This document shows, one piece after another, positions 44,642-51,899 of a DNA stretch of 64,000 nt (the stretch's first letter is position 1; the number at the start of each line of letters is the position of its first letter). Below the pieces are notes generated by a model. The model searched no databases. It saw nothing but the letters and a program-made list of their open reading frames with translations, and had not been told where the DNA came from. This DNA is from the human T2T-CHM13v2.0 reference genome, Homo sapiens. The translations under genes were made by a program, and so were the position numbers. The stretch lies in NCBI RefSeq assembly GCF_009914755.1, contig NC_060928.1. One strand, written 5' to 3'.

Positions 44642-45025
44642 AAGAAGCATATCTATCACCCTTAACACTTTCTTTGTGCCTCTTTGTCTTCCTTCCTTCC
44701 TCCTCTCCACTCTCTGTGCCATCCCCAGGCCACCATCAATCTGCTATCTGTCACTATAAAATAATTTATATTTCCTGGAGCTTTTTATAAATGGGATCAT
44801 ACACTATATCCTTTTTTCTTGTCCAGCTTATTTTGCTCAGTATAATTATTTGGAGATTCACTCATACTGTGTGTACCAGTAGTTTTCTGCTTTTCATTGC
44901 TGGGCAGTGTTCCACTACATTGACATAACACGATTTGTTTTTTCAATTACCTGTTACTGAACATTTGGGTTTTTTTAAGTTTAACATTTTAAGAAACTGC
45001 CAAATAACTTTGCAAAGTGGTTTTA

Positions 45026-45545
45026 CTATTCAAATTCCCACCAATAATGTATGGGAATTCCAGTTCCTCCACATCTTTGTTAACATGTTCTATGGTCAGT
45101 TCTTTAATTTTAGCTATTCTAATAGATGTGTAGTAATAGTATGACATTGTAGTTTTAATTTGCATTTCTCTATTGAGCATATTTTTATGTGCTTATTTAT
45201 TATCAAGGTATTTTCTTTGATGACATGTCTATTCAAATATTTTACACAGATTTGATTGGTTTATTTTCTTATTGCATTTTGAATTTTCTACACATTCTGA
45301 ATAAAAGGCCTTCATCAGATATAAAGTTTGCAAACATTTCTCACAGAATATGAATTGTCTTCCATTCTCTTATGGATTCTTTTCAAAACATCAAAAGTTT
45401 TAAATTTTGATGAAGTCTAATTTATTTTATATGGACTTTACTTTTAATGTGGTATCTAAGAAATCTTTGCCCGACACAACATCATTCTCCTATGTTTTTT
45501 CTTAAAGTTTTATAGTTTTAGCTTTTATGTTTAGGTCTATTATTC
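45026..45545 (+). repeat. Left copy of ~520-bp direct duplication flanking HERV-H
   Basis: ctattcaaattcccacc...ttaggtctattattc; about 28 substitutions and 1 indel versus 50819-51339 (by eye). Confidence 0.97.
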
Positions 45546-45977
45546 TGTCATGCACATCCATGTGCAGAGGTCACCAAACAGGCTTTGTGTGAGCAATAAA
45601 GCTTTTTGATCACCTGGGTGCAGGTGGGCTAAGTCCGAAAAAGGAGTCAGCGAAGGGAGATAGGGGTTGGGCAGTTTTATAGGATTTGGGTAGTAGCAGA
45701 AAATTACAGTCAAAGGGGTTGTTCTCTGGTGGGAAGGGGCAGGAGTCACAAGGTGCTCAGTGGGGGAGCTTCTGAGCCAGGAGAAGGAATTTCACAAGGT
45801 TAATTGCTCAGTTTAGGTGGGGTAGGAACAAATCACAATGGTGGAATGTCATCAATTAAGGCAGGAATCAGCCATTTTCACTTCTTTTGTGATTCTTCAG
45901 TTGCTTCAGGCCATTTGGATGTATACGTGCAGGTCACAGGGGATATGATGGCTTAGCTTGGGCTCAGAGGCCTGACA
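45546..45977 (-). mobile_element. HERV-H 3' LTR (LTR7 family), 432 bp, both termini intact
   Basis: Minus strand reads TGTCAGGCCTCTGAGCCCAAGCTAAGCC...GCATGACA; TATA cctataaaac. Confidence 0.95.
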
Positions 45978-46499
45978 TTCCTGTCTTCTTATATTAATAA
46001 GAAAAATAAGAAAAATAAAACAAAATAGTGTTGAAGCATTGGGGCAGTGAAAATTTTGGGGGGTGATATGGAGAGATAATGGGCGATTTTTTTCATGGCT
46101 GTTTCGAGCAGGATTGGGGTGGCATGGGAACCTAGAGTGGGAGAAATTAAGCTGAAGGAAGATTTTGTGGTAAGGGGTGATATTGTGGGGTTGTTAGAAG
46201 GAGCATTTGTCATACAGAATGATTGGTGATCGCCTGGATGCGGTTTTGTATGAATTGAGAAACTAAACAGAAGGCACAAGGTCCAAATAAGAGAAGGAGA
46301 AAAACAGGTATCAAAGGACTAAGAATTGGGAGGACCCAGGACATCCAATTAGAGAGTGCCCAAGGGGGTTCAGCATAATATCTTGCTTGGTTGGTGAATT
46401 TTGGGGCTCTATCCTTGACAGAGTCCTCCTTTTTAAGTTGGAGGCTGAGCTTGGTGAGGTGTGTTTTTAAAAGACCATTAGTCCCGTTCTACCTTTCCT

Positions 46500-48633
46500 G
46501 AAGATTGAGGACGGTAAGGGGTATGAAATTTCCATTGAATACCAAGAGCCTGAGAAACTGCTTAGCTGATTTGACTAATAAAGTCCGGTCCATTATTGGA
46601 CTGTATAGAGGTGGGAAGGCCAAACCGAGGTATTATGTCTTACAGAAGGGAAGAAATGACCACTGTGGCCTTTTCAGACCATGTGGGAAAGGCCTCTACC
46701 CATCTAGTGAAAGTATGTACCCAGACAAAGAGGTATTTTAGTTTCCTGACTAGGGGCATGTGAATAAAGTCAATTTGCCAGTCCTGGGCAGGGGCAAATC
46801 CCTGAGCTTGATGTGTAGGGAAGAGAGGGGGCCTGAACAATCCCCAAGGAGTAGTAGAATAGCAGATGAAACACTGAGAAGTGATTTCATTGAGGATAGA
46901 GTCCTATGATGGAAAGGAAATGAGAGGTTGGTTCTAAGAGGTGGGCTAGCGGCTTGTAACCTACATGGAAGAGGTAATGAAATGACGACAGAATAGAACG
47001 GGCTTGTGAGGCTGGAAGGAGATTCTTTTTTGGTCTAAGAACCATCTGCCTTGAGTGGTGAGGGATCGATAGGTGGAAACTTCAGTGGGAGAGTAAATAG
47101 GAGTGACTGATGAGGAGAAAAACTGGCCATGAGGGACAGAAGTAGGAATATTGGCTGCTTTTTTAGCTATCTTATCAGCATAATTGTTGCCTTGAGCAAT
47201 GGGGTCTGAGGCCCTTTAATGGCCTTTGCAGTGAATGACTCCAGCTTTTTTTTTTTTTTGGAAGTAAAGCAGCCTTGAGAAGAGTTTTTATTAAAGAGGT
47301 ATTAATGATGGAGGACCCTTGTGTAGTGAGGAAACTTCTTTCTGCCCATGTAATAGCATGGTGGTGAAGGATGTGGAAGACATACTTGGAATCAGTGTAG
47401 ATATTGACACATAGTCCCTTTGCCACACAGAGATATGAGGGCTTGCCCAAAACTGTGAGGTCAAGTTGTTTGGACAGAAAGGCTACAGGGCTCGGTCCTG
47501 GCTTTTGTGTAAGGAATTCCAACTGCATAGCCCTGTACTTTGGCTGTGTGTAATGAAAAGAGTTGGGATGAGTTAGGGAGAGCTAGTGTGGAAGCAGCTT
47601 CTAGGGCTGTTTTTAAGGAATGGAGAAAGGAGTGGAGAAAGGATTTAGGATGTATGGGGTCAGCTATGTTTCCTTCTGTGAGTTTATATAATGGTTTAGT
47701 CAGGATGGTAAAACTAGGTATCCAAAGGCAAAAGTACCTAGCCATGCCTACGAGGAAAAGAGCTGTTGTTTTGTAGAAGGGGTTGAGGTTTGGAGATTAG
47801 CCACACACAATCAGTAGGGAGAGCACATGTGTTTTTATGAAGAATTATGCGGAGATAGGTAATAGATGAGGAAGAAACTTAGGCTTTGGAGGGGGATATG
47901 TGATATCCCTTTGAGAATAGATATTGGAGGAGCAGGAGTGTGTCCTGTTGGGAAGATTTGTAAGAGGTGCTGCAGATAAGGTGAATATCCTGAACTAGCC
48001 CATAAGATTTGTCCAGTTTCTGGACAGGTGGGGTAGGGGAGTTGTAAGGAGAATGTGTAGGCTTTAAAAGGCCGTGTTGTAACAGGCAAGTGATAGCAGG
48101 CTTTAGTCCTCGTAAAGTCTGTTGTGGGATGTGGTACTGGCATTGAGCCAGGTAAGAGTGATTAGGTTTTAATGGGATCGTAAGGCATGCCTGATGGGTC
48201 ACCAAGGAGGAAGTAGAGGTGTCCCATACTTGTGGATTAAGGTAGGGAGACACAAGGGGAGGATGCAAAGGAGGCTATGAACTGGGGAAAAGGGTGGCAA
48301 TAAGGTGTGGCTGTCGTACAGGAATAGTCAGGGAAGCAGATAATTTAGTTAAAATATCTTGAGTTAATAAGGGAGCTGGGCAGGTGGGGATAACTAAAAA
48401 GGAGTGTATAAAAGAATATTGTCTAAATTGGCACCAGAGTTGGGGAGTTTTAAGAGGTTTAGAAGCCTGGCCGTCAATACCACAGCAGTTATGGAGGCAA
48501 GGGAAACAGGCCCTTGAAAAGAAGGTAATGTGGAGTGGGTAGCCTCCATATTGATTAAGAAGAGGACAGACCTACTCTTCATTGTAAGAGTTACCCAAAG
48601 TGTCTGTGATGGTCCAGGAGGCTTCCAAGGCAA
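46500..48633 (-). pseudogene. HERV-H pro-pol remnant (PR, deleted RT, RNase H, integrase)
   Basis: FLINMEATHSTLP (PR); PYNSPTPPVQKLDKSYGLVQDIHLI (RT); VNIYTDSKYVFHILHHH (RNase H); DWQIDFIHMPLVRKLKYLFVWVHTFTRWVEAFPT (IN); many frameshifts and deletions. Confidence 0.92.
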
Positions 48634-48643
48634 TTGGGCAGCA

Positions 48644-49760
48644 TCAATCTTCAGCCGCTAAGCTGAGAAGATCCGGGAAGGAGTCAGTCAGGGAGCCTTG
48701 GGCCAGAGTTCCAGGGGCTCTGGGAGTGGCTGCCAGGTGAGTTGGACAGTCCGATTTCCAGTGGGGTCCCACACAGATGGGACATGGCTTAGGAGAAAAC
48801 CTTGGCTGTGGGCATTCCTTGGCCCAGTGGCCAGATTTCCAGCACTTGAAGCAAGATCCTGGGGGAGGCAGTCCTGGAGGAATGCCTGGCCACTGTGGTT
48901 CAGGCATTTTGAAGTTCTTGTGTGCTGTAGATATGGCTGGGGTTTCTCTCACAGTGGAGGCAAGTAATTGCAACTCAGAAATACGTTGCTACTTGGCTGC
49001 CTCTTTTATTGTACACCTTGATGGCGAGGTTAGTTAAGTCCTGTTGCAGGGTTTGAAGGTCAGAATCTAATTTTTAGAGCTTTTTCTAATGTCGGGAGCT
49101 GGTTGGGTAATAAAATGAATATTGAGAATAAGAGAGCCTTCTGGCCCCTCTGAGTCTAGGGCGGTAAAGCGTCTAAGGGGTGTTGCCAAATGGGCCATGA
49201 ACTGGGTTGAGTTTTTATGTTTGATGAAAAAGAGCCTAAATTCTAACTGATTTGGGAGATGTCAGATAAAGGAAAAGGAGCATTAACTTTGGCTATGCCT
49301 TCAGCTTCAGCCACCTCTTCAAGAGGAAATTGTTGGGCAGGTGGGGGAGGGCTAGTTGACGAATGAAACTGTAAGCCAGACTGGGTGTGAGGAGGGAAGG
49401 TGATAAAAGGACTATAGGGTGGGGGAGTGGAGGCTGAGGGCTGAGGAAGAATTGGGGCCAGGCTCGGCCTGGTGAGGAGCAGCCTGGGGAGGAGTGGAGA
49501 GGTCGGATGGGTCCGTAGAAAAGGAGGATTCAAAGGACTCAGAGCTTGGAGTGGAGACTGAAGGAACAGACAGGAGAGAAAGAAGAAAGATTTGGGACAA
49601 GTCACATTGGGAGCAGAGGCTAGGGAGGGACCAATGTGTAAAAGGATGCCTGGACATCAGGCATCTCAGAACCATTTGCCCATTTTTCAACAAAAATCAT
49701 CCAGATCTTGTAAAATGGAGAAATCCAAAGTGCCATTTTCTGGCTATTTAGAACAATTAT
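48644..49760 (-). pseudogene. HERV-H gag remnant
   Basis: NC zinc knuckles CFKCWKSGHWAKEC and CPICVGPHWKSDC (ORF 48644..48973); PPPYSP...QFPLEEVAEAEGIAKVNAPFPLSDISQIS (ORF 49243..49605). Confidence 0.92.
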
Positions 49761-50440
49761 CGAGTTTGTACTGGGGCCAAGCGGTGTTGCAGAAGAAAAT
49801 AAGACGCTTAGATTTTAGATCAAGTAAGAGTCAAAGAGGTTTTAAGTTTTTGAGAACACAGGCTAAAGGAGAAGGGGTAATGGAGGGTGGAAGGTTGCCC
49901 ATAGTGAAGGAGGCAAGCCCAGAGAAAAGAGAGGGTAGAGACATGGAGAAGGGGGATGGTGAGCAGCCAAAGCAGGCATCCCCGCAATTGACTTGCCACC
50001 AAGGGAATGTGGGTGAATGACCAAGACAGGCATCCCTGTGGTGATCAGACACCAATGCAGTGTGGGTGAATAATCAGGCAGGCATCCCCGTAGTGATTAG
50101 ACACCAAGGGAAGACCGTCTTCCCAAGTCCGTGACTGGCACTGGAGTTTTGGGTCCATGGATAAAATGTGTCTCCTTTGTCGCTACTAGAGAGGAAAAAG
50201 AACTGGAATTGGAAGGACAGGGGGATTGAAGGGTAGCGACAGAGGGAGATAGAAGGGTGCAAGAGAGGCTGGAGAAGAGAGTGAAAAGACTGCTTATCTG
50301 ATTTGAAATTGGTAAGATGTTCCTTGGGCTGTTTGGTCTGAGGACCCGAGATCGTAGGTGGATCTCCTCACAGAGTGAGGACAAGGACAGAGGACTGGTC
50401 TCCCAAAGGAGTCCTCCTGTCCCAGGTCTTCAACACCAAA

Positions 50441-50818
50441 TGTCATGCACGTCCGTGTGAAGAGACCATCAAACAGGCTTTGTATGAGCAATAAAGATTT
50501 TAATCACCTGGGTGTAGGTGAGCTGAGTCCAAAAAAGGAGTCAGTGAAGGGAGATAGGGGTTGGGCAGTTTTATAGGATTTGGGTAGGTAATGGAAAATT
50601 ACAGTCAAAGGGTTGTTCTCTGGTGAGCAGAGGCAGGGGTCACAAGGTGCTCAGTGGGGGAGCTTCTGAGCCAGGAGAAGGAATTTCACAAGGTAATGTC
50701 ATCAGTTAAGGCAGAAACCAGCCATTTTCACTTCTTTTGTGATTCTTCAGTTGCTTCAGGCCATTTGGATGTATACGTGCAGGTCACAGGGGATATGATG
50801 GCTTAGCTTGGGCTCAGA
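50441..50818 (-). promoter_or_regulatory. HERV-H 5' LTR (LTR7 family), 378 bp; potential leftward promoter; terminal 9 bp missing
   Basis: Homologous to 45546-45977. It retains TATA (gttttatagg on +, ~50568-50577) but lacks ggcctgaca at its right end and a 44-bp U3 block. Promoter activity cannot be judged from sequence. Confidence 0.85.
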
Positions 50819-51339
50819 CTATTCAAATTCCCACCAACAGTGTCTGGGAATTCCAGTTCCTCCACATCTTTGTCAACATGTGCTATGGTCAGTTCTTTAA
50901 TTTTAGCTATTCTAATAGAGGTGTAGTAATAGTATGACATTGTGGTTTTAATTTGCATTTCTCTATTGAGCATATTTTTATGTGCTTATTTATTATTAAG
51001 GTATTTTCTTTGATGACATGTCTATTCAAATATTTTACACAGATTTAATTGGTTTATTTTCTCATTGAATTTTGAGTTTTCTACACATTCTTAATAAAAG
51101 GACTTCATCAGATGTAAAGTTTGCAAACATTTGTCATCGAATATGAATTATCTTCCATTCTCTTATGGATTCTTTTCAAAACATCAAAAGTTTTAAATTT
51201 TGATGAAGTCTAATTTATTTTATATAGACTTTACTTTTAATGTGGTATCTAAGAAATCTTTGCCCAACACAAGGTCATCCTCCTATGTTTTCTTCTGAAA
51301 GTTTTATAGTTTTAGCTTTTACACTTAGGTCTATTATTC
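50819..51339 (+). repeat. Right copy of ~520-bp direct duplication flanking HERV-H
   Basis: Collinear with 45026-45545; begins exactly at the truncated LTR end. Confidence 0.97.
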
Positions 51340-51418
51340 CTTTTCAATTTAATTAATTATAGATTCAAATCTGTTATTTTCAAGTGGATATCTAAATTTT
51401 TAGCTCTATTTGTTGAAA

Positions 51419-51899
51419 GGTCTCAGTGGGCTAAAATCAAGGTGTTTGCAGAGCTGTTCCTTCTGGAGACCATAAGGGAGAATCTATTTCTTTGCCTCTT
51501 CTATTAGGTTGGTGCAAAAGTAATTGTGGTTTGTCATTGAAAGTAACGGTAAAAACTGCAATTACTTCTGCACCAACCTAATAGCTTCAAGAAGCTACCC
51601 ACATTCCTTGGCTCAAGATCTCCTTCTGTCTTCAAGCCAATATGTCAGCCCAAATCTTTCTCAAATAGCCATCATTCGGGTTTTCCCTCAGCTGCCTTTC
51701 TCTCTCACTTATAAGGCAATTTCTGATTAGATTGAATCCATCTGTATAACCTAGGCTATTCTCATCTCAAAGTCAGCTGATTTGCAAACTTAATTCTATC
51801 TACATCTTTAATTTCCTTTTCTGTATAACCTAACATATTCACAAATTCTAAAGATTGAATGTGGACATATTTAGGGAAGGCATTATTTTGCCTACCACA
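51419..51899 (-). mobile_element. MaLR LTR (MLT1C/E-like), partial
   Basis: gggctaaaatcaaggtgtttgcagagctg...cacattccttggctc...cattattttgcctaccaca. Confidence 0.8.
51504..51581. mobile_element. MADE1 (Hsmar1-derived MITE) inserted in MLT1
   Basis: ttaggttggtgcaaaagtaattg...caattacttctgcaccaacctaa palindrome with TA duplications at 51502-51503 and 51582-51583. Confidence 0.95.

What the first reader, a model, noticed from the sequence alone, without database searches (positions are those of the whole stretch)
45026..51339. HERV-H provirus with a ~520-bp target duplication and one damaged end: likely fossil of a one-ended integration
Seen: host L1 sequence 45026-45545 is repeated directly at 50819-51339, abutting both proviral ends. 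The left end has an intact terminus (...ttattc|TGTCA). The right U3 end lacks its last 9 bp (ggcctgaca, present at 45969-45977 in the other LTR) and joins the target through a single shared A. By eye, the duplicate copies differ by about 28 substitutions in 520 bp (~5.5%) and the LTRs by about 24 in ~376 bp (~6%), so both pairs look the same age. Known: concerted retroviral integration gives 4-6-bp TSDs. Large duplications arise when integrase joins only one end and host repair joins the other, and long TSDs have been reported for some HERV-K loci. Inference: this is such an event fixed in the germline for HERV-H. Repeat masking would hide it, because both copies are labelled only as L1.
Basis: partly seen in the sequence, partly recalled or inferred. 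Interest (0 to 1): 0.8.

Follow-up and report, generated by a model that had tools for sequence, protein, structure and literature searches.

The report
HERV-H provirus with 520-bp target duplication
An old HERV-H provirus on human chromosome 4 is flanked by a 520-base copy of its target instead of the usual 5 bases and has one clipped end, the known scar of an integration in which the host cell, not the viral integrase, joined the second end.

Summary
Window 45026-45545 is repeated directly at 50819-51339, with 28 mismatches and one 1-nt indel in 520 columns. The two copies abut a 5.27-kb LTR7/HERV-H provirus that lies on the minus strand. The U5 end at 45546 is a canonical TG..CA terminus. 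The U3 start of the 5' LTR, at 50818, lacks 9 bp and joins the target through one shared A.

The two copies are local duplicates of one old dispersed repeat. The next-best genomic matches are at most 73% identical. Relatives of that repeat run through both duplication boundaries as a single copy.

Of 20 related HERV-H proviruses, all 20 have intact U3 starts, 18 have a 5-bp duplication matching at 4 or 5 of 5 bases, and none has a long abutting repeat.

Flank divergence (5.4%) fits the age of the provirus. The LTR differences, however, are unevenly spread.

The best reading, at about 0.65, is an aberrant one-ended integration. This is known experimentally for ASLV and HIV, and has already been proposed for long duplications at HERV-K(HML-2) loci. 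It is therefore a new member of a known kind and of moderate interest. The decisive test, a single-copy empty site in other primates, could not be run here.

The parts
45026..45545 (+). Left copy (A) of the duplicated target. It is part of an old dispersed repeat; the name L1 is recalled, not tested. It ends directly at the U5 terminus of the provirus.
   Evidence: 94.6% identical to 50819-51339; other genomic copies are at most 73% identical; 5 of 6 fetched relatives align without a break across 45025|45026.
45546..45977 (-). 3' LTR of 432 bp, complete. The U5 end (...CA) is at 45546 and the U3 start (TGTCAGGCC...) is at 45977.
   Evidence: termini; 39 other genomic LTRs are 89-91% identical, 24 of them over the full 1-432 and the others over at least 1-412; the first 54 nt are identical by eye to a published LTR7 reporter sequence.
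45978..50440 (-). Internal proviral region of 4.46 kb, heavily decayed; the longest stop-free stretch is 152 aa, on the plus strand (137 aa on the minus, coding strand). Pfam remnants on the minus strand, in retroviral order: gag zinc knuckle 48644-48988; protease 48275-48571 (weak); RNase H 47175-47582; integrase core 46640-46903; gamma-type Env TM C-terminus 46210-46488 (just below the Pfam cut-off). A purine-rich tract lies next to the 3' LTR at 45978-45992. The primer-binding region lies at 50423-50440.
   Evidence: ORFs; Pfam; sequences next to the LTRs; colinear with 24 other proviruses at 80-88% identity.
50441..50818 (-). 5' LTR of 378 bp. Its U3 start lacks the first 9 bp (10 if the shared A is given to the target). 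It also lacks a 44-bp block that the 3' LTR carries at 45801-45844.
   Evidence: in element orientation it starts TCTGAGCCC, whereas all 20 relatives start TGT[CGT][AT]GG; the 44-bp block is present in other genomic LTRs, so it was lost here.
50818..50818 (.). A single A shared by the truncated LTR end and the target (1 nt of microhomology at the non-canonical junction).
   Evidence: read directly: a at 45025 precedes copy A, and a at 45968 is the LTR base.
50819..51339 (+). Right copy (B) of the duplicated target. It runs on without a break into the native downstream sequence.
   Evidence: 8 of 12 matches to other copies of the repeat run 5-22 nt past 51339.
45027..45031 (+). TATTC pentamer 1 nt inside the start of the duplication. 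The same pentamer ends the duplication at 45541-45545, where a canonical 5-bp duplication would lie. Unexplained.
Evidence: local resampling gives 113 of 18502 (0.6%) for such a recurrence at offsets 0-2.

Best explanation
This is the germline fossil of an aberrant, one-ended retroviral integration.

Shown. A linear HERV-H DNA was joined at its U5 end to an old dispersed repeat after window position 45545. The terminus is exactly the processed ...CA end that integrase makes.

Inferred, first step. The other end, the U3 start of the 5' LTR, was not a usable integrase substrate, or was not transferred. It had lost 9-10 bp, either through imprecise plus-strand priming at the polypurine tract or through nibbling of the free end.

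Inferred, second step. Host repair then attached this end about 520 bp upstream, at 45025/45026, using 0-1 nt of microhomology. Two routes give the same product. In one, the free viral 3' end primes copying of the host strand from 45026 rightwards and then recombines with the chromosome. In the other, the nicked host 3' end is extended by strand displacement through the 520 bases and is then end-joined.

Either way the 520 bases between the two joining points end up on both sides of the provirus, in place of the family's normal 5-bp duplication. The product became fixed. It then decayed for roughly 13-26 million years (mutation rates recalled, not from a call). During that time the 5' LTR lost 44 bp, and the U3 halves of the two LTRs were probably homogenised.
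For: 1. Anatomy. The left junction is tattc|TGTCA. The right junction lacks ggcctgaca and shares a single A with the target.

2. No 5-bp duplication in register: 1 of 5 bases match. Instead, a 521-column abutting repeat at 94.4% identity.

3. Family control. Of 20 related proviruses, 20 have an intact U3 start and 0 have a long abutting repeat. Their 5-bp duplications match at 5/5 in 11, 4/5 in 7, 3/5 in 1 and 2/5 in 1.

4. The two copies are local duplicates. They are 94.6% identical to each other and at most 73% identical to any other scored genomic copy.

5. The pre-integration arrangement was single-copy and contiguous. Relatives of the repeat cross the X|A boundary in 5 of 6 fetched loci. 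They cross the A|Y boundary in 8 of 12 matches. Locus L003 spans both boundaries colinearly.

6. Age. Flank differences are 28/520. The whole LTR gives 24/377 (Fisher p = 0.56). The CpG-poor U3 half of four other sister-LTR pairs gives 36/685 (p = 1.0).

7. Experimental precedent (PMC5041404, passages read). Aberrant HIV and ASLV proviruses have one normal end. The other end is often truncated. [quoted passage not shown]
Against: No empty orthologous site was seen, because no primate genome is on hand. The single-copy ancestral state is therefore inferred from paralogous repeat copies only.

The LTR differences are heterogeneous. There are 21 in the 197 columns on the R/U5 side (10.7%), which exceeds the flank's 5.4% (Fisher p = 0.019). 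Taken at face value, this would make the duplication younger than the integration. Other HERV-H pairs also run faster in that half (70/778 against 36/685 in four full pairs), so this is probably a regional rate effect. It does weaken the dating argument.

Wild-type integrase rarely produces such events (0 of 99 and 0 of 85 HIV proviruses without drug).

The TATTC recurrence at both ends of the duplication (about 0.6% by resampling) is not predicted by this model.

Sequence alone cannot separate this reading from a repair event that followed shortly after a normal integration.
Confidence: 0.65

Rival explanations
1. Normal concerted integration with a 5-bp TATTC duplication, then a double-strand break at the 5' LTR / host junction while the insertion was still heterozygous. 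The host-side end copied about 515 bp from the empty allele or sister chromatid. It was then end-joined to the LTR end, which lost 9 bp.
For: This gives exactly the observed structure. The flank copies (5.4%) are less diverged than the R/U5 half of the LTRs (10.7%; Fisher p = 0.019), as expected if the duplication is younger.
Against: It needs two rare events, the second within about 10 bp of the proviral end. One-ended integration gives the same product in one step, and that step is documented experimentally. The faster R/U5 half is a family-wide feature. The flank divergence equals that of the U3 half of other proviruses of the same cohort.
Confidence: 0.15
2. Both ends were joined by integrase, but non-concertedly, at two target sites more than 520 bp apart. 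This is what has been suggested for HERV-K loci that have long duplications and intact LTR ends. A later deletion across the right junction then removed the first 9 bp of the LTR and the start of the right flank copy.
For: Long duplications of 61-450 bp flank HML-2 LTRs that are listed as solo LTRs or proviruses; two, of 250 and 111 bp, have validated pre-integration alleles (PMC5488345, Table 2 passage). Deletions do occur in this provirus, for example the 44-bp loss in the same LTR.
Against: It needs an extra deletion that happens to straddle the junction. The junction shows 1-nt microhomology and no filler, which is typical of a primary end-joining event. Truncation of the aberrant end is itself the common experimental outcome.
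Confidence: 0.08
3. A tandem duplication of the repeat segment existed before the virus arrived. It may have been mediated by the TATTC microhomology. The provirus then integrated normally exactly at the junction between the two copies. This corresponds to the 'pseudo-TSD' model discussed for HML-2.
For: TATTC lies at both ends of the unit (about 0.6% by chance). The pseudo-TSD idea is in print (PMC5488345, Discussion passage).
Against: The integration would have to hit one 5-bp site. The right junction reads ...caga|c|tattc. No single deletion converts ...cagaggcctgaca|tattc into this, so a deletion plus a substitution is needed, and the result would have to recreate by chance the c that precedes TATTC in copy A (read directly). 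The flank copies are no older than the LTRs.
Confidence: 0.04
4. Recombination between two different proviruses or LTRs, or an assembly artefact, produced a chimeric locus with mismatched flanks.
For: Provirus-provirus recombination that leaves non-matching flanks is known for HERV-K (recalled, from no call). The closest unrelated LTRs are 89-91% identical to the 3' LTR, which is not far below the sister pair's 93.6%.
Against: The flanks are copies of the same 520 bases, not of two different loci. A recombinant would keep intact LTR ends. The two copies differ at 28 sites, so they are not a collapsed or duplicated assembly read.
Confidence: 0.02

Closest known systems
Aberrant (one-ended) integrations of ASLV and HIV-1 vectors (the Hughes laboratory; PMC5041404, passages read; the earlier papers Oh 2006 and Varadarajan 2013 are not held, so seen only as citations)
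   Same: One end is normal and joined by integrase. The other end is often truncated and is joined by host enzymes. The 4-6-bp duplication is replaced by a host duplication of hundreds to thousands of bp.
   Different: Those are somatic events in cultured cells, provoked by mutated viral ends, integrase inhibitors or mutant integrase. This one is a fixed germline copy of a gamma-like endogenous retrovirus, tens of millions of years old. The cause of the bad end is unknown.
HERV-K(HML-2) loci with long target-site duplications (Mamedov 2004, seen as a citation only; Kahyo 2017, PMC5488345; Macfarlane and Badge 2015, PMC4422153; passages read)
   Same: An endogenous retrovirus flanked by long direct repeats of the target. 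Lengths of 13-450 bp are listed, with 250 and 111 bp validated against empty alleles. PMC4422153 attributes them to 'inefficient integration'.
   Different: A different family (HERV-H, normal duplication 5 bp). At 520 bp the duplication is longer than any in that table. It is much older (5.4% diverged, against 0-3 mismatches). It shows a clipped viral end, which points to host-mediated joining of the second end.
Ordinary HERV-H / LTR7 proviruses
   Same: LTR7-type LTRs. gag-pro-pol-env remnants in order. An internally deleted form of about 5.3 kb, colinear with 24 other copies.
   Different: All 20 evaluated relatives have intact TG...CA ends and a 5-bp duplication, and none has a long flank repeat.

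Membership tests
HERV-H (LTR7-flanked endogenous retrovirus) | LTRs of the LTR7 type | tested here: met
   The 18-nt LTR start motif occurs in published LTR7 reporter sequences. By eye, the first 54 nt of the 3' LTR are identical to the '7down' construct printed there. 39 other genomic LTRs are 89-91% identical.
HERV-H (LTR7-flanked endogenous retrovirus) | Internal gamma-like gag-pro-pol-env, colinear with other HERV-H copies | tested here: met
   Pfam remnants in order on the minus strand (zf-CCHC, RVP weak, RNase_H, rve, TLV_coat C-terminus). The element is colinear at 80-88% identity with 24 other proviruses. No reverse-transcriptase domain hit was found.
HERV-H (LTR7-flanked endogenous retrovirus) | Primer-binding site complementary to tRNA-His | not tested
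   The sequence after the 5' LTR was printed, but no tRNA-His reference was compared with it.
HERV-H (LTR7-flanked endogenous retrovirus) | 5-bp target-site duplication | tested here: not met
   1 of 5 bases match in register here. Among 20 relatives the match is 5/5 in 11 and 4/5 in 7. This failure is the anomaly under study, not evidence against the family assignment.
Aberrant one-ended retroviral integration product | One canonical, integrase-type viral end (processed ...CA joined directly to host DNA) | tested here: met
   tattc|tgtca at 45545|45546. This is the same terminus position as in the relatives; the end sequence (...GACA) is shared with 7 of the 20, most others ending ...GAAA.
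Aberrant one-ended retroviral integration product | The other viral end is truncated or otherwise non-canonical, with a host-type junction | tested here: met
   The 5' LTR lacks 9-10 bp. There is 1 nt of microhomology.
Aberrant one-ended retroviral integration product | A large duplication (or deletion) of host DNA replaces the short duplication | tested here: met
   A direct repeat of 520/521 bp abuts both ends.
Aberrant one-ended retroviral integration product | The pre-integration allele holds one copy of the duplicated segment | not testable with these tools
   No primate or pangenome data are on hand. The only support is indirect: paralogous repeat copies are single-copy and cross both boundaries.
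Aberrant one-ended retroviral integration product | The duplication is of the same age as the integration | tested here: inconclusive
   Flank 28/520 against whole LTR 24/377 gives p = 0.56. Flank against the R/U5 half, 21/197, gives p = 0.019. Flank against the U3 half of four other pairs, 36/685, gives p = 1.0.

The most novel reading that the evidence does not exclude
The second joining point was not random. The pentamer that would have been the canonical duplication (TATTC at 45541-45545) recurs 1 nt inside the distal breakpoint (45027-45031). One possibility follows from this. A HERV-H intasome carrying one defective end might still have engaged a second copy of its preferred target pentamer on looped or nucleosomal DNA about 520 bp away, roughly three nucleosome repeats (the nucleosome spacing is recalled, from no call). 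Host enzymes would then have finished the join next to that pentamer. If this were general, HERV-H would carry a hidden class of long-duplication insertions. Their flanks could later recombine and recreate false 'empty sites'.
Probability: 0.07. Interest if true: 0.6.

Novelty: new member of a known kind. Interest (0 to 1): 0.35.

Why it matters
It is a clean natural example of the one-ended integrations seen in cell culture with ASLV and HIV. It shows that such events also happened in the primate germline, for a gamma-like retrovirus, and could be fixed.

Practical consequences:
- Repeat annotation labels both flank copies simply as the same old repeat, so such events are invisible to routine pipelines.
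- Pipelines that look for 4-6-bp duplications would call this provirus 'TSD-less' or recombinant.
- 520-bp direct repeats could recombine, delete the provirus and restore an apparent empty site. That would mislead presence/absence phylogenetics; the concern has been raised for HML-2 (PMC5488345).

It does not change the understanding of integration.

Tried and rejected
1. Two independent copies of the repeat as flanks. Rejected: all other scored genomic copies are at most 73% identical.

2. Naming the flanking repeat with Pfam. Six ORFs gave no relevant hit, so 'L1' rests on recollection of the ORF2 C-terminal motif and on copy number.

3. Fetching 20 relatives as 10-kb stretches. Short 3'-flank stretches were fetched instead. 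As a result only 24 relatives were located, 21 were tried and 20 were evaluated.
   - Three were left out because their 3' ends were not located (the loci near C5:57.85 Mb, C4:157.38 Mb and C3:110.29 Mb).
   - One was dropped because its LTR ends could not be placed (C2:44.02 Mb).

5. Long flank matches were seen in two relatives: 79 bp at C11:77.48 Mb and 284 bp at 83% identity at C11:66.57 Mb. They do not abut the provirus on both sides, so they are taken as ordinary dispersed repeats.

6. Integrase use of the internal CA in ...ctCAga. Rejected because the next bases do not match the target (read directly).

8. Literature.
   - No paper holds both 'unusually long target site' and 'HERVH'.
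   - 36 papers hold HERV-H together with 'target site duplication', 'provirus' and 'flanking'. None of the 15 listed is about long duplications in HERV-H (titles and abstract starts only).
   - LOC102725220 occurs in no held paper.
   - Oh 2006 and Varadarajan 2013 are not held.
   - The supplementary tables of PMC5041404 and PMC5488345 were not opened. They may hold junction details relevant to microhomology.


Full report
**What is there**

Window 45026-45545 (copy A) is repeated in direct orientation at 50819-51339 (copy B). This is seen with the repeat finder and with blastn (94.4% identity over 521-522 columns).

A global alignment gives 28 mismatches in 520 ungapped columns and one 1-nt indel (p = 0.054, K2P = 0.056). 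Similarity ends abruptly at both outer edges.

Between the two copies lies a 5,273-bp element with two LTRs:
- 45546-45977, 432 bp;
- 50441-50818, 378 bp.

Over their shared part the LTRs differ at 24 of 377 columns. They also differ by three 1-nt indels and one 44-bp gap (K2P = 0.068).

**Orientation and identity**

Pfam remnants lie on the minus strand in retroviral order:

| Remnant | Window position | E-value |
|---|---|---|
| gag zinc knuckle | 48644-48988 | 9e-7 |
| protease | 48275-48571 | 7e-3 (weak) |
| RNase H | 47175-47582 | 7e-6 |
| integrase core | 46640-46903 | 5e-8 |
| gamma-type Env TM, C-terminus | 46210-46488 | 1e-4 (just below the Pfam cut-off) |

No reverse-transcriptase hit was found. 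The longest stop-free stretch is 152 aa, on the plus strand; on the minus (coding) strand it is 137 aa.

The right LTR is therefore the 5' LTR and the left one is the 3' LTR.

In element orientation the 3' LTR begins TGTCAGGCCTCTGAGCCC. That motif occurs in published LTR7 reporter constructs (passages of bioRxiv 10.1101/2021.07.08.451617). By eye, the first 54 nt are identical to the '7down' construct printed there.

The assembly holds many LTRs 89-91% identical to the 3' LTR, most over its full length (40 scored of 3194 candidates). It also holds 24 other proviruses colinear with this one at 80-88% identity (25 scored of 2706 candidates).

So this is an ordinary, internally deleted HERV-H provirus in everything except its junctions.

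**The junctions**

The left junction is ...tctattattc|tgtcatgc. That is the processed ...CA terminus of U5 joined directly to host DNA.

The right junction is ...gggctcaga|ctattcaaatt. The 3' LTR continues ...gggctcagaggcctgaca at 45960-45977. The 5' LTR therefore lacks its first 9 bp, or 10 if the shared a is given to the target.

The a at 50818 matches both the LTR and the a at 45025 that precedes copy A. This is 1 nt of microhomology.

In register, the five bases upstream and downstream of the provirus match at only 1 of 5 positions.

**The two copies are local duplicates of one target**

Apart from A and B themselves, the best matches to A in the whole assembly are 67-73% identical (40 scored of 3020 candidates). 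A and B therefore arose from each other, not from two separate insertions of the repeat.

The repeat is high-copy and old. Its plus-strand translation resembles what I recall of the C-terminal part of LINE-1 ORF2. Pfam gave no supporting hit, so the name L1 is recalled and not tested.

Paralogous copies run through both duplication boundaries:
- 5 of 6 fetched relatives align continuously across 45025|45026.
- 8 of 12 matches to other copies extend 5-22 nt beyond 51339.
- One locus (L003) spans both boundaries in a single colinear copy.

This is indirect evidence that the pre-integration site was X-A-Y with one copy of A.

**Family control**

Of the 24 related proviruses located, three had a 3' end I could not place, so 21 were tried. 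One more failed at the step of placing its LTR ends. That left 20.

| Feature among the 20 relatives | Count |
|---|---|
| Start with TGT[CGT][AT]GG | 20 |
| 5-bp duplication matches 5 of 5 | 11 |
| Matches 4 of 5 | 7 |
| Matches 3 of 5 | 1 |
| Matches 2 of 5 (degenerate LTR end) | 1 |
| Long repeat abutting both proviral ends | 0 |

Two relatives show flank matches of 79 bp and 284 bp. These lie away from at least one junction, so they are not target duplications.

The locus under study is therefore the one outlier among 21. It is an outlier both in its clipped U3 end and in its 520-bp duplication.

**Age**

Flank divergence (28/520) and whole-LTR divergence (24/377) do not differ (Fisher p = 0.56; excluding CpG contexts, p = 0.88).

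The LTR differences, however, are very unevenly spread:
- 21 fall in the 197 columns of the R/U5-side half;
- 3 fall in the 180 columns of the U3 half;
- none falls in the last 100 bp next to the clipped end.

Other HERV-H sister-LTR pairs also run faster in the R/U5 half:
- four complete pairs give 70/778 against 36/685;
- all 18 pairs give 254/2973 in that half.

At the ratio seen in those four pairs, about 11 differences are expected in the U3 half here. Three are seen (Poisson P = 0.004). Later LTR-LTR gene conversion is the likeliest cause. This is an inference.

Against the R/U5 half alone, the flank looks younger (p = 0.019). Against the U3 half of the four other pairs, it is indistinguishable (p = 1.0).

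My reading is that the duplication is as old as expected for a HERV-H insertion of this cohort. The data cannot exclude that it formed somewhat after the integration.

With the LTR-dating rates I recall (0.13-0.22% per million years per lineage; from no call), the two distances give about 13-26 million years.

**Mechanism**

The structure matches the experimentally defined product of one-ended integration. Passages of PMC5041404 say the following about aberrant HIV and ASLV proviruses:
- One end and its junction appear normal.
[quoted passage not shown] - The proposed model is that the unintegrated viral 3' end primes copying of nearby host DNA and then recombines with the chromosome. A join on one side of the integrase-made junction gives a deletion. 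A join on the other side gives a duplication.

Applied here, the steps would be as follows (all inferred):
1. The window plus-strand 3' end, ...gggctcaga, paired through a single A at 45025.
2. It was extended through 45026-45545 into the downstream sequence.
3. Recombination with the chromosome there left the 520 bases on both sides of the provirus.

The 9-bp loss has two possible causes. One is plus-strand priming a few bases inside U3. That would clip only the 5' LTR, as seen here, while the 3' LTR keeps the full U3 start next to its purine tract. The other is nibbling of the free end. The data cannot tell these apart.

**Rivals**

(a) *Normal integration, then a break at the 5' junction.* The break would be repaired by copying from the empty allele, followed by end-joining. 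This gives the same sequence. It needs two rare events and cannot be excluded without other primates (0.15).

(b) *Non-concerted joining of both ends by integrase, then a deletion across the junction* (0.08).

(c) *A pre-existing tandem duplication hit exactly at its junction* (0.04). No single deletion turns ...cagaggcctgaca|tattc into the observed ...caga|c|tattc. In addition, the c reproduces the base that precedes TATTC in copy A.

(d) *Inter-provirus recombination or an assembly artefact* (0.02).

**Unexplained**

TATTC both ends the duplication (45541-45545) and lies 1 nt inside its start (45027-45031). Local resampling puts such a recurrence at 113 of 18502, or 0.6%.

**Comparison with what is known**

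Long flanking duplications are in print for HERV-K(HML-2):
- PMC5488345 lists lengths of 13-450 bp. The 250-bp and 111-bp cases are validated against empty alleles.
- PMC4422153 calls such repeats 'likely to be a result of inefficient integration' and cites the ASLV and HIV work.

I found no such report for HERV-H:
- In one search, none of the 15 papers listed, of 36 that matched, deals with long duplications in HERV-H (titles and abstract starts only).
- In one search, five papers hold the terms, and none concerns HERV-H.
- In one search, no paper holds both 'unusually long target site' and 'HERVH'.

Wild-type HIV gave 0 of 99 and 0 of 85 aberrant proviruses. Such events are therefore rare, but a few are to be expected among the hundreds to thousands of HERV-H insertions.

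**Verdict**

It is a new member of a known kind and of moderate interest.

Noticed in passing
window 45546-45977 vs 50441-50818: Differences between the two LTRs are strongly clustered. There are 21 in the 197 columns of the R/U5 half and 3 in the 180 columns of the U3 half. None falls in the last 100 bp next to the clipped end. About 11 were expected in the U3 half from four other sister-LTR pairs (P = 0.004). This suggests later LTR-LTR gene conversion, so dating by whole-LTR divergence is unreliable here.
   Followed up: partly
window 45801-45844: A 44-bp block is present in the 3' LTR and absent from the 5' LTR. Other genomic LTRs of this type align across the block (most of them over the full 432 bp), so the 5' LTR lost it after integration.
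   Followed up: partly
window 45027-45031 and 45541-45545 (also 50820-50824 and 51335-51339): The pentamer TATTC lies at the end of the duplicated segment and 1 nt inside its start. Chance is about 0.6% by local resampling (post hoc). No mechanism was found.
   Followed up: partly
window 51499-51589: An approximately 85-bp palindromic dispersed repeat. It matches many genomic copies at 87-92% identity and matches on both strands. It looks like a miniature inverted-repeat element. It lies about 160 bp downstream of copy B.
   Followed up: no
window 51354-51361: Matches of other copies of the flanking repeat all stop 15-22 bp after the end of copy B. Either the repeat ends here or it is interrupted here.
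   Followed up: no
window 45578-46103: The RefSeq 'enhancer' feature in the hub's table coincides with the 3' LTR and the first 126 bp of the internal region. It is therefore an LTR7-derived element. The lncRNA LOC102725220 runs on the opposite strand to the provirus, and none of its listed exons lies in the provirus.
   Followed up: no
G000:C3:84238794-84240433 (loci L032, L054): A related HERV-H provirus shows two successive LTR-like matches at its 3' end (query 4413-5264, then 4405-5093 and 5195-5264). This suggests a tandem or partly duplicated 3' LTR.
   Followed up: no
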